A DNA stretch of 64,000 bases, from NCBI GenBank assembly GCA_050575255.1, contig JBNZDD010013398.1, positions 101,360 to 165,359 of the forward strand, in the 5' to 3' direction. How positions within the stretch are numbered: position 1 is the stretch's first letter; every line of letters starts with the position of its first letter. A program made the position numbers. Source of the stretch: Harriotta raleighana (lineage: Eukaryota). Shown here in pieces: positions 6,001 to 9,000 of the stretch.

Positions 6001-9000
6001 ACAGATGAAGCCACAAAACACTGACTGTCGGTTCTCACCCTATCAGAGCAATGTTCCTATCAGGTAACATCGAACCCTATTCCAGTTCATTCACCCATGT
6101 CTCTGTAGCGATTTTCCCTCTCTCTGTCCTTTGTGTGTGTGTGTGTGTGTTTGTCTGTCTCGCTCTCTCTGTTCTGTTTGTGTTTCTTTCTCTCTGTCCC
6201 GTGTGTGTGTCTATGTCACTCTCTCTGTCTGTCCTGTGTGTGTGCGTGTGTCTCTCTCACCCCCGTTTCACTGCACTGTGATATATCTCGGTGCTTGACT
6301 GACTCAATCGACTCTTTTGTTCCCAGTTTTCTGGATCAGGAACCGTTGGCTGGCCGCCATCCGGCACAGATACTGCGTTCAGTGGTCTCTACTCCAACTG
6401 GTCAGTATTGGACTGAATGGGGGGAATAGATACCTGGGCGTGGGTGGGTGGGAGAGAGGGGTAAGTAGGTGGGGGGGAGAGAGACAGGAGCCTGTACTGA
6501 CAAATGCTTAGTTTTATTTTAAAATAACGTGGAGTCTTTTTAAGTATAGTGATAGGTTTCCGCTTGTGTCAGACACTTGGCTGACCCCATAACAAAATCT
6601 TACATCTATGGGTCAGTTAAAGATCATTAATTCTATCAGTTGCCATTCATTTCCCCCCCCCATTTTCTACGCTCGTTGAACCGGTGCACTACACAGTGCA
6701 TGTGCAGAATGGTAATTCGCTGCACGTAATGCTACCCTTACCTTCTCCCCCCCCCACCCCCACTCCAAAAGGAATATGAGTATCAATGCGAATATTATTA
6801 AATCACATAAATCGTCTTTTTTCTCCTTTTTTTTCCGCCGTGAAACAAATCATTTCAAGAGCTCGGTGTTTTATTGCCCAGATCAGCGGGTAATCCGGGA
6901 TGGCTTGAAGGCTGATTATAGCAGTAGAGAGAGGGAACCATTATCTGTGTTATCTGGCTTTTAATCAGTGTGATTATTCCAATGTGACTTTCTCCGGGGA
7001 GGAGGGAGCGGGCGGGGGTGGGGGGGGGGGAGTATTTGAAGAGGGAGAGGGGGGGCAAGGGGATAATGACCAGCACTGTTCACCCATTTGCATGCCATCT
7101 GCGTGCTTGGAACAATTTGGTAACCGCAATATATTTTCGATTAACCTACCATATTAGCCTTTATCCGTTGATTTATACCCACCGATTTATTCATTCATTG
7201 TCTCTTTGTCCCATAGAGGTTACTGAGCAGTTATATACAAACACATATATCATGCACACACGCAGAAAACACACACACACACACATACAGTTCTTTGCTT
7301 TTTACCTATTGCAAAACAATGTGATGTAACATCCTATAAAAGTTTAGAATACTGTATTTTCTTTCCAGTTTAGTAGTAAGACGGGAGGTGGATTTAAAAA
7401 AATATGGAAATGGACATTGTTGGTATTCAAGTTTGATGACTAACACACTCTGGCAGTCAGGCTCAGTCAGTGAGTTACCTTGTTCAGAAACACTCAGTTC
7501 CGCTTAACCAGAGCCAGGTTCCGCGGTGAGTGAGACAGCCCTAACACCCCCATGAGATTTTATGAAACACTGAACGCGCATTAGTTACAATGATTATTTA
7601 AAGAGGTCTTTTCCCCATTGCCGAATTTCCTTGTGTCAGGGAATGGAGAGAAAAAAAATCGAGTCAGGAAATTAATGCCTGGATTAATTTTTTCAATTAA
7701 AATCGGCCTCTCTGGGGAAGGTCTCTTTTTTTGTAGCACAGTCAGGTTGAGATGTCGGTACATTCACACACACTCTCTCACACTTTTCTTTGTTTGAGAG
7801 TCGAAGACATTGGGGTGGGAGAAAGAGAGAAAGAGAGGGAGATGTCTTTCCAATCTTATTGCAGGCAGCAGGATATGCTGTTTCTTGCCTAGACCACCAG
7901 GGGCGCTACACAAACTGTCAGAAGGGAAATTGCTTCATGTTAGTAATTCGATCAAGTAAGGGCTAGAGATATAATGCTTGTCACTTGTGGACCCGCTGTA
8001 TCTGCATGAACGCACGCGATTATGACGGTGGTTTCATGAAGACAAATTCTTGCCAAATAATCAACAGTTTGATTAGGGTTTTGATGTTTTAAGAGGCAAT
8101 GGGGGAAGATTTAAGCCAGGTCTTAGAGGGATAGTGCAATCAAAAGGCCATTAACATCTAGAAATCTCCCAACTAGTGTACACCGTAGGATAATGTTTCT
8201 TCCCACAGATTTAGTGCACACTAGTAAAAAAAAAGTAATTGATGGTTTGTTTACTAACTCATTAAAGAAAGACTTGGCTATAATTGTTAGGTTGGGAGCA
8301 GCATTGGGGTCGCTGCAGATTGAGAAGGAAAAACACTCAATGGGACACAATGTTTGTCTGCTTCCCAACCCCCACATGGCTCATGGCTGGAGGCAAACAG
8401 TAGTGTATGCATTCTGGTTTGTTACATACTAAAACGACTCTCATAAGATATGTAATACAGTGGGGACTCGCAAATAAACATTAGCTTTATTTATGGACAA
8501 TAACCCAAACAACACATTTCCCAAAGCCAAACACTGTCCAATACAATTAGCTTATTTGGCTTTCTCTCAGGACCAGTTAATACCAGTTTCTCCTAAGTTA
8601 TTTTCTGGATCTCCTCAGGGTTCTCTACAGCTTTCTCTCTCTCGCTCTCTTTCTTCTTTGAAGAGAGTAATAATGAGATTCTTTTGGGCAGGCATAAATG
8701 TGGAGAAATCCCAAAATTTGCTGGTCATCACAGAACACAACCATAATCTTCAAAATAGCTCATCAACACATTGACTTCAAAGGTCAAATCATTGTCACTT
8801 CAAAAACCTTTGCCCACAGTCTAAATAAGATAGGTGCTTGGCATCCCTACCATTTAATGGCACACGTGTCAATGAACGAGACGCAGAACAACGATATCTA
8901 TAAGTACTTAAATAGAATGGACATTTTCTATAGACACAATCATCATCATCATCTCAGGAGACATGTGGCAGAATCATTGTGCAGTTTAACTGAAAATCTA

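What the first reader, a model, noticed from the sequence alone, without database searches (positions are those of the whole stretch)
6327..6470. Constant exon 2 has two same-phase donors separated by an in-frame stop: possible switch for a WIRS-less tail
Seen: a weak donor G|GTCAGT at 6400/6401 and a consensus donor G|GTAAGT at 6460/6461, exactly 60 nt apart and both phase 1. The extension reads GQYWTEWGE then TAG (6427-6429), 31 nt before the downstream junction. Known: stops less than about 50 nt from the last junction usually escape NMD. Inference: the distal donor gives a stable isoform ending GQYWTEWGE without exon-3 motifs, and the proximal donor gives the full tail, for every variable exon of the subcluster. 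From memory (unverified), teleost Pcdh-delta tails contain a similar GQYWTWG, so the extension may be ancestral coding sequence cut short by a nonsense change and bypassed by the proximal donor.
Basis: partly seen in the sequence, partly recalled or inferred. Interest (0 to 1): 0.7.

Follow-up and report, generated by a model that had tools for sequence, protein, structure and literature searches.

The report
Ancient tail motif stranded past donor
In a chimaera-like fish, the second shared tail exon of the protocadherin-delta gene is followed, just past its splice site, by a stranded piece of very old coding sequence that ends in a stop; a second splice site downstream could therefore make a shortened tail, but whether it is ever used is untested.

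Summary

The locus is the protocadherin-delta gene of a holocephalan. Its variable exon is 90% identical to Callorhinchus milii 'protocadherin delta1'. That protein uses the junction equivalent to the proximal donor.

G[QH]YWTWG occurs in 112 of 297 related proteins held, and every one that carries a name is from a ray-finned fish. It sits at the same place in the tail. In the window it occurs once in six frames, against 1.9e-5 expected by chance. So the extension is ancestral coding sequence.

Use of the distal donor could not be tested.
- Against it: 7 G-runs and a G-quadruplex motif fill the gap between the donors, no C. milii isoform carries the extension, and a residue is inserted in the otherwise invariant motif.
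- For it: skates, catsharks and a frog have annotated alternative ends at this junction.

My reading is a former exon end that became intron and now serves the weak proximal donor. The switch remains possible (about 0.25).

The parts
1275..3791 (+). Variable exon of the protocadherin-delta gene, from the ATG to the donor CAG|GTGAGA (phase 0)
   Evidence: An open frame covers it and the donor is seen. Pfam finds Cadherin (5 stretches), Cadherin_2 and Cadherin_C_2. It is 90% identical over 100% of its length to C. milii protocadherin delta1, P0001.
6005..6063 (+). Constant exon 1, 59 nt, ending two bases into a codon; donor CAG|GTAACA
   Evidence: Sequence. 16 of 19 residues match C. milii P0124.
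6327..6400 (+). Constant exon 2 as spliced at the proximal donor (74 nt: 1 base, 24 codons, 1 base)
   Evidence: Sequence. 17 of 24 residues match C. milii P0124, with a 4-residue gap. The C. milii proteins P0001 and P0124 pass from its last residues straight into exon 3.
6398..6408 (+). Proximal donor CTG|GTCAGTAT, weak because of C at +3. Its bases are also the codons for G-Q-Y of the old motif.
   Evidence: It matches 7 of 9 consensus positions, and the predicted duplex with the U1 5' end is -6.9 kcal/mol (U1 sequence recalled).
6401..6429 (+). In-frame remnant of the ancestral exon-2 extension (together with G6400 it reads GQYWTEWGE), closed by TAG at 6427-6429
   Evidence: The homologous GQYWTWG is in 112 of 297 proteins held.
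6419..6478 (+). G-run array, 7 runs of three or more G within 6401-6480, including a G-quadruplex motif at 6436-6461
   Evidence: This density is in the top 0.14% of 80-nt windows and is reached at only 3 loci in the window. The G4 motif is one of 7 on the + strand.
6458..6468 (+). Distal consensus donor GGG|GTAAGTAG, same phase as the proximal donor
   Evidence: The predicted U1 duplex is -11.9 kcal/mol. Its use is untested.
10598..10848 (+). Constant exon 3, from the acceptor to TAA at 10846-10848, with the WIRS-type FSTFGK at 10777-10794
   Evidence: Sequence. 77 of 82 residues match C. milii P0124. Pfam Cadherin_tail scores 38.4 bits against a cut-off of 22.

Best explanation
The 60 nt after exon 2 are the remains of an ancient 3' extension of protocadherin-delta constant exon 2.

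In ray-finned fishes this extension is constitutive coding sequence: the invariant GQYWTWG plus about four more codons before the donor. In this holocephalan the mRNA is cut at a donor that lies inside the old G-Q-Y codons (GGT CAG TAT read as G|GTCAGTAT). The rest of the motif is therefore now the start of intron 2.

That intron start is closed by a TAG and carries one inserted codon. With the G-runs and G-quadruplex motif that follow, it most likely serves as the splice site and intronic enhancer that make the weak proximal donor work and hold the strong downstream GTAAGT in check. Any transcript that does use the distal donor, or reads through, would encode a tail that stops after GQYWTEWGE and lacks all of exon 3, including FSTFGK.

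Shown: the sequence features, the gene model, the homology of the motif, and the junction used in C. milii.
Inferred: that the proximal donor dominates here, that the G-runs enforce it, and that the distal site is cryptic or minor.
For: 1. The gene model matches C. milii delta1 exon by exon, and both full-length C. milii proteins (P0001, P0124) use the proximal junction.
2. The same junction, just after the T-P-[T/V/S] landmark, is seen in 7 of 7 good shark full-length tails, in 6 of 9 batoid tails, and in frogs, lizards and a turtle.
3. 112 of 297 proteins held have G[QH]YWTWG right after that landmark. None of the other 185 has G[QEH]YW.
4. All 102 tails with the ray-fin-type exon 2 and an in-frame exon 3 carry QYWTWG: 101 as G[QH]YWTWG and one as a P variant.
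5. The sturgeon isoforms P0162 and P0166 differ exactly after the four residues that follow the motif, which places the ray-fin donor there.
6. In the window the motif occurs once against 1.9e-5 expected, in frame and at the junction.
7. There are 7 G-runs in the 80 nt after the proximal donor (top 0.14% of windows) and none in the first 80 nt of the two other introns. A G4 motif lies at 6436-6461.
8. GGG motifs downstream of a 5' splice site are reported to aid intron definition and to influence donor choice (passages of PMC1326234).
9. None of the 3 members of the C. milii delta1 cluster carries the extension. A search with the genomic translation of exon 2 plus extension found nothing (weak evidence).
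10. The inserted residue breaks a spacing that never varies in the 112 fish sequences, which suggests relaxed protein-level constraint.
Against: - The motif in this 'intron' is better kept between holocephalan and ray-finned fishes (7 of 7 residues plus one insertion) than exon 2 itself, which shares little beyond the T-P landmark. That looks like continuing selection. The donor and G-run roles cover G-Q-Y and W-G, but not the W-T codons between them.
- The distal donor is a perfect GTAAGT in the same phase (post hoc chance about 0.007).
- Other lineages have annotated alternative ends at this very junction.
- No transcript data, reads or other holocephalan genome could be consulted, so dominance of the proximal donor in this species rests on C. 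milii.
- The U1 duplex energies used a recalled U1 sequence. No trained splice-site scorer was available.
Confidence: 0.5

Rival explanations
1. Both donors are used. The distal one (or simple read-through) gives a stable mRNA whose stop lies 31 nt before the last junction, and hence a functional tail ending GQYWTEWGE without exon 3 and its WIRS-type motif. The G-run/G4 array would be the regulator, for example through hnRNP H/F levels.
For: - A perfect in-phase GTAAGT, with a predicted U1 duplex of -11.9 against -6.9 kcal/mol for the proximal donor.
- Deep conservation of the motif up to the stop.
- The 31-nt distance fits the 50-55-nt rule (rule seen only in the listing and abstracts).
- Parallels in annotated models:
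  - Skate isoforms P0130 and P0014 differ by an 8-residue segment at this junction, and 3 of 9 batoid tails carry it.
  - Catshark isoforms P0073 and P0186 read through the exon-2 donor and stop after 3 codons.
  - Ascaphus P0289 and P0290 end in another exon after exon 2, without FSTFGK.
  - Frogs have a 16-residue alternative donor inside exon 2.
  - A mudskipper has donors 3 codons apart (P0221/P0222).
- Pcdh-alpha makes long, short and absent tails from its constant exons (passage of PMC7339444).
Against: - There is no expression evidence of any kind for this species.
- C. milii has no such isoform among the 3 cluster members, and nothing was found.
- G-runs between competing donors are reported to favour the upstream one (the specific McCullough and Berget result is recalled).
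- The inserted residue and the stop look like decay.
- The isoforms in other species are gene-model predictions whose read support I could not see.
Confidence: 0.25
2. The TAG is an assembly error or a private variant. The true allele is open, and the distal donor adds an in-frame 20-codon optional insert, as the 8-9-residue optional segment appears to do in skates and rays.
For: The two donors are exactly 60 nt apart in the same phase. Skates show an in-frame optional segment at this junction. The window contains three isolated N, so it is not flawless.
Against: Nothing in the local sequence suggests an error. After the TAG the frame has no likeness to the residues that follow the motif in fishes. 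That stretch is a G-run array, which is typical of intron starts.
Confidence: 0.07
3. The likeness to GQYWTWG and the second donor are coincidences in a G-rich intron start, with no shared ancestry.
For: The region is 53% G, which favours Gly and Trp codons. The profile E-value over the window is only 0.011.
Against: 1.9e-5 chance hits are expected in six frames, against one observed. It lies in the exon's frame, directly after the same landmark residues as in 112 fish tails.
Confidence: 0.02

Closest known systems
Protocadherin-delta tail of ray-finned fishes (Polypterus, sturgeon, bowfin, gar, eels, teleosts)
   Same: It is the orthologous gene, and the landmark at the end of exon 2 is followed by the same motif. 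Exon 3 likewise carries the W-T-P-R-Y-G region and the F-S/A-T-F-G-K hexamer.
   Different: There the motif is constitutive exon: all 102 in-frame tails carry it. The donor lies about 11 codons further on. Here the motif lies beyond the donor used in C. milii, has one extra residue and is followed by a stop.
Skate and ray delta isoforms with or without an 8-9-residue segment at the exon 2/3 junction (Amblyraja P0130 against P0014; Leucoraja P0131; Hypanus P0013)
   Same: This is an optional in-phase segment at the same junction in cartilaginous fishes. It begins G-E-Y, which, like G-Q-Y here, can be written by codons that form a donor.
   Different: The segment is open and short. Whether it arises from a second donor or a second acceptor cannot be told from the proteins. 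These are predicted models, and the likeness to the motif beyond G-x-Y is weak.
Pcdh-alpha A, B and O tail isoforms (Sugino et al. 2000, as cited in PMC7339444; passage read)
   Same: Splicing choices in the shared constant exons of a clustered protocadherin give long, short or absent common tails. The alpha tail also holds a WIRS motif near its end (passages of PMC7811963).
   Different: It is a different subcluster with different exons. Those isoforms are shown experimentally, and nothing is shown here.
G-run (GGG) intronic enhancers downstream of 5' splice sites (passages of PMC1326234; McCullough and Berget 1997 recalled, with only its title seen in that reference list)
   Same: A dense GGG array begins within 20 nt of a weak donor and fills the space up to a competing donor.
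   Different: Protein binding and the effect on donor choice are untested here, and the organism is a cartilaginous fish.
Stops that escape nonsense-mediated decay by lying less than 50-55 nt from the last junction (listing and abstracts only)
   Same: The stop would lie 31 nt before the last junction if the distal donor is used.
   Different: The rule comes from mammals. The junction is hypothetical here.

Membership tests
Clustered protocadherin, delta subcluster gene | A large variable exon encoding cadherin repeats, a membrane span and a proximal cytoplasmic part | tested here: met
   Pfam finds Cadherin (5 stretches), Cadherin_2 and Cadherin_C_2 in 1275-3791.
Clustered protocadherin, delta subcluster gene | Three small constant exons downstream that encode the rest of the tail | tested here: met
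   Exons at 6005-6063, 6327-6400 and 10598-10848 have AG/GT borders and compatible phases. Each matches the C. milii tail. Exon 3 hits Cadherin_tail.
Clustered protocadherin, delta subcluster gene | Orthology to a named delta gene | tested here: met
   The best hit is 90% identical over 100% of the query and is named 'protocadherin delta1 [Callorhinchus milii]' by one of its sources.
Exon with alternative (tandem) 5' splice sites | Two donor-like GT sites at the 3' end of one exon, in compatible phase | tested here: met
   Sites at 6400|6401 and 6460|6461, 60 nt apart.
Exon with alternative (tandem) 5' splice sites | Both junctions present in mature mRNA | not testable with these tools
   No RNA-seq or cDNA of this species is available. 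The C. milii proteins show only the proximal junction.
Exon with alternative (tandem) 5' splice sites | Both sites conserved in related species | tested here: inconclusive
   No holocephalan or other vertebrate genomic DNA is on hand. Isoform pairs in skates, frogs and a mudskipper show alternative ends at or near this junction, but only as predicted proteins.
GQYWTWG tail motif of ray-finned-fish delta protocadherins | The heptamer itself | tested here: not met
   The window has all seven residues in order but with one residue inserted before the second W. None of the 112 fish sequences has an insertion.
GQYWTWG tail motif of ray-finned-fish delta protocadherins | Position directly after the T-P landmark at the end of exon 2, in frame | tested here: met
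GQYWTWG tail motif of ray-finned-fish delta protocadherins | Being part of the translated protein | not testable with these tools
   This depends on donor use.
WIRS-bearing receptor tail | Hexamer of the form hydrophobic-x-T/S-F-x-x in the cytoplasmic tail | tested here: met
   FSTFGK at 10777-10794. The consensus, and the same hexamer in PCDH10 and PCDH18, come from passages of PMC10318009.
WIRS-bearing receptor tail | Binding to the WAVE regulatory complex | not tested
   No binding prediction or assay was run.
Stop that escapes nonsense-mediated decay by position | Stop less than 50-55 nt upstream of the last exon-exon junction | tested here: met
   31 nt from 6429 to 6460, conditional on use of the distal donor. 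Exon 3 is the last coding exon.
Stop that escapes nonsense-mediated decay by position | Transcript shown to be stable | not testable with these tools
   No expression data.
G-run intronic splicing enhancer | Several GGG motifs within about 150 nt downstream of a 5' splice site | tested here: met
   7 runs in 6401-6480, against a mean of 0.67 per 80 nt in the window.
G-run intronic splicing enhancer | Effect on splicing or binding of hnRNP H/F | not testable with these tools
   This needs minigenes or binding assays.

The most novel reading that the evidence does not exclude
Delta constant exon 2 has carried two competing donors since before cartilaginous and bony fishes parted. Holocephalans have kept the pair as a regulated switch. 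The weak proximal donor, formed by the G-Q-Y codons themselves, gives the full WIRS-bearing tail. The distal donor, normally masked by a G-run/G-quadruplex array, gives a stable mRNA for a short tail that ends in the ancient GQYW motif and cannot recruit the WAVE complex.
Probability: 0.2. Interest if true: 0.65.

Novelty: new member of a known kind. Interest (0 to 1): 0.45.

Why it matters
The delta gene is the one clustered protocadherin that seems never to have duplicated and was lost in mammals (passages of PMC2764143). Little is known about its tail.

This locus shows how an exon border can move. A conserved peptide motif contains a latent donor in its own codons. One lineage splices there and another reads through. 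[quoted passage not shown]

If the distal donor is used, the gene would make tails with and without the actin-linking WIRS motif from a single variable exon. That would parallel the A and B tails of Pcdh-alpha. I found no paper that mentions the motif (0 papers). Among the 10 of 40 papers listed, no title or abstract start concerned alternative splicing of the delta constant exons, and the passages I read from three of them did not describe it either. Supplementary files could not be consulted.

Tried and rejected
- **Search with exon 2 plus extension.** Repeated as a 40-residue unbroken genomic translation, it gave no hit at E <= 10 among longer proteins, from 5 candidates. This is weak evidence only.
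- **Search with the tail of the public C. milii protein** (P0001, residues 840-967). It gave only 8 proteins from 41 candidates. The isoform survey therefore rests on cluster look-ups, where at most 40 members per cluster were read and 15 listed.
- **Hairpin over the proximal donor** (6393-6425). Predicted at -11.3 kcal/mol, z = -1.86, with 8 of 200 shuffles folding as well. This is not convincing, and I dropped it as a mechanism.
- **Alternative acceptor in skates.** I considered that the optional skate segment comes from a second acceptor of exon 3 rather than a second donor of exon 2. I prefer the donor reading because the short form begins like holocephalan exon 3 and the segment begins G-E-Y. 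Proteins alone cannot settle it.
- **McCullough and Berget 1997** is not held, so its specific result is recalled.
- **No trained splice-site scorer was available.** I used consensus matches and duplex energy with a recalled U1 5' end.
- **Joined model.** I did not search with the joined spliced model. The window's exons were handled one at a time.
- **Orthologous introns stayed unchecked.** The genome collection on hand holds only bacteria and archaea, so I did not scan it.
- **Not human.** The window's best matches are C. milii.
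Full report
**What is in the sequence.**
One search confirms the finding base for base.
- An acceptor AG ends at 6326 and the exon starts at 6327.
- CTG|GTCAGT lies at 6400|6401 and GGG|GTAAGT at 6460|6461, 60 nt apart.
- In the exon's frame the intervening bases read GQYWTEWGE followed by TAG at 6427-6429, 31 nt before 6460.

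**The gene.**
- The window holds two long cadherin open frames, at 1248-3824 and 36942-39644.
- The first, from ATG 1275 to the donor at 3791|3792, has cadherin domains.
- Its best match, at 90% identity over its whole length, is a 967-residue Callorhinchus milii protein that one source names 'protocadherin delta1'.
- Three small exons follow: 6005-6063 (59 nt), 6327-6400 and 10598-10848.
- Translated one at a time, they match the C. milii tail: 16 of 19, 17 of 24 (with a 4-residue gap) and 77 of 82 residues.
- Exon 3 hits Pfam Cadherin_tail and holds FSTFGK at 10777-10794. That hexamer fits the WIRS consensus and equals the one listed for PCDH10 and PCDH18 (passages of PMC10318009).
- The second variable exon (ATG 37092 to the donor at 39614|39615) is 94% identical to another C. 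milii protocadherin.
- The window is therefore from a holocephalan other than C. milii. It is not human.
- I did not search with a joined spliced model. The window's exons were searched or aligned separately. For the tail as a whole I used the public C. milii protein.

**Which donor is used in relatives.**
- Both full-length C. milii proteins pass from the last residues of exon 2 straight into exon 3, which is the proximal junction.
- The third member of that cluster skips both small exons. None of the 3 carries the extension.
- The same junction, just after a T-P-[T/V/S] landmark, is seen in 7 of 7 good shark full-length tails, in 6 of 9 batoid tails, and in frogs, lizards and a turtle.
- In Ascaphus, two isoforms diverge exactly there.

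None of the other 185 has G[QEH]YW.
- Every one of the 112 that carries a name is from a ray-finned fish, from bichirs and sturgeons to teleosts. Some have no name.
- All 102 tails with the ray-fin-type exon 2 and an in-frame exon 3 carry QYWTWG; one has P for the first G.
- The motif follows the same landmark as in the window.
- Two sturgeon isoforms differ exactly after the four residues that follow the motif. This places the ray-fin exon 2/3 junction about 11 codons beyond the holocephalan one.
- In the window the motif occurs once in six frames, against 1.9e-5 expected.
- A profile of the fish segment ranks this frame first in the window (E = 0.011; next 1.7).

The extension is therefore homologous to coding sequence of bony fishes, and the motif predates the split of cartilaginous and bony fishes. 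I also note that the codons GGT CAG TAT for G-Q-Y are themselves the proximal donor G|GTCAGTAT. The old motif contains a latent splice site.

**The two donors and what lies between them.**
- Each donor matches 7 of 9 consensus positions.
- The proximal one has the rare C at +3 and a predicted U1 duplex of -6.9 kcal/mol. The distal one scores -11.9 (U1 sequence recalled).
- GTAAGT occurs 14 times on the + strand. The post hoc chance of an in-phase copy within 100 nt is about 0.007.
- The 80 nt after the proximal donor hold 7 runs of three or more G, against a window mean of 0.67. This is in the top 0.14% and is matched at only 3 loci. The first 80 nt of the two other introns have none.
- Positions 6436-6461 form a G-quadruplex motif, one of 7 on the + strand.
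- GGG motifs downstream of a donor are reported to aid intron definition and to affect donor choice (passages of PMC1326234). That they favour the upstream of two donors is my recollection of a paper I could not open.
- A small hairpin over the proximal donor is not significant.

**Parallels elsewhere, all from predicted gene models whose read support I could not see.**
- Amblyraja isoforms differ by an 8-residue segment at this junction. 3 of 9 batoid tails have such a segment, beginning G-E-Y.
- Two catshark species have an isoform that reads through the exon-2 donor and stops after three codons. Others end in a different short exon.
- Ascaphus has an isoform ending in another exon after exon 2, without FSTFGK.
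- Frogs use a donor 16 codons upstream within exon 2.
- A mudskipper has donors 3 codons apart.
- Exon-2-skipped, frame-shifted short tails are annotated in bichirs, eels, frogs and sharks.

The 3' end of this exon is evidently a hot spot for alternative ends.

**Weighing.**
The homology and the gene model are solid. What cannot be decided here is whether the extension ever reaches mature mRNA in this fish.

For a live extension:
- The motif is better kept than exon 2 itself.
- The strong donor is in phase.
- Other lineages show parallels.

For a dead one:
- The stop.
- The inserted residue, in a motif that never shows an insertion in 112 fish sequences.
- The G-run array.
- No such isoform in C. 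milii, and nothing in the protein search (weak).

Much of the kept sequence can also be explained at the RNA level. G-Q-Y is the donor and W-G is part of a G-run, which leaves only the W-T codons unexplained.

I therefore favour a former exon end that now serves as the donor and enhancer of the proximal site, with the distal site cryptic or minor (0.5). An erroneous TAG hiding an in-frame optional insert is possible (0.07), and coincidence is close to excluded (0.02).

**What is known.**
- Passages of PMC2764143 describe the delta subcluster as never duplicated and lost in mammals. The passages I saw do not mention alternative tails.
- Pcdh-alpha makes long, short and absent tails from its constant exons (passage of PMC7339444).
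- The motif string is in none of the papers searched.
- Of the 40 papers found, 10 were listed. No listed title or abstract start concerned splicing of the delta constant exons, and the passages I read from three of them did not describe it.

**Unchecked.**
Reads, RNA-seq and any orthologous intron.

Noticed in passing
window 6100-6270 (intron 1, just upstream of the exon-2 acceptor): The short intron between constant exons 1 and 2 is packed with (TG)n and CTCTCTGT-like repeats. I recall that UG repeats near acceptors promote exon skipping in other genes. Exon-2-skipped, frame-shifted isoforms are annotated in bichirs, eels, frogs and sharks.
   Followed up: no
window 6026-6028 (constant exon 1): The tryptophan of the N-T-D-W stretch seen in bony-fish and tetrapod tails is a cysteine (TGT) here and in C. 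milii. Sharks and rays have other residues there.
   Followed up: partly
window 6327-6400: Exon 2 lacks four codons relative to C. milii and is much less conserved (17 of 24 residues) than exon 3 (77 of 82).
   Followed up: partly
window 37092-39614: This is a second protocadherin variable exon, presumably the first of the next subcluster. It is 94% identical to C. milii P0062 and has the donor GAG|GTGAGT at 39614|39615. It lies 26 kb beyond the delta constant exons. I did not determine the name of its subcluster.
   Followed up: partly
window 5835-5864, 6996-7062, 9305-9332, 46665-46682, 51524-51552: These are further G-quadruplex motifs on the + strand. One lies about 140 nt before constant exon 1 and a cluster lies about 550 nt into intron 2.
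   Followed up: no
window 6393-6425: A small hairpin pairs the proximal donor (TCAGT) with ACTGA of the extension, partly through the inserted codon. It is predicted at -11.3 kcal/mol, z = -1.86, and 8 of 200 shuffles fold as well.
   Followed up: yes
window 10598-10726: C. milii isoform X2 joins the variable exon directly to exon 3 out of frame and stops after 8 residues. In the window the same frame of exon 3 stays open for 43 residues.
   Followed up: no
window 34975, 35139, 62740: Three isolated N. I left them as they are.
   Followed up: no
window 6797, 7696, 8261, 8473, 10309: Polyadenylation-signal hexamers (ATTAAA or AATAAA) occur inside intron 2. The first lies 368 nt after the TAG, so a read-through transcript could end inside the intron.
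   Followed up: no
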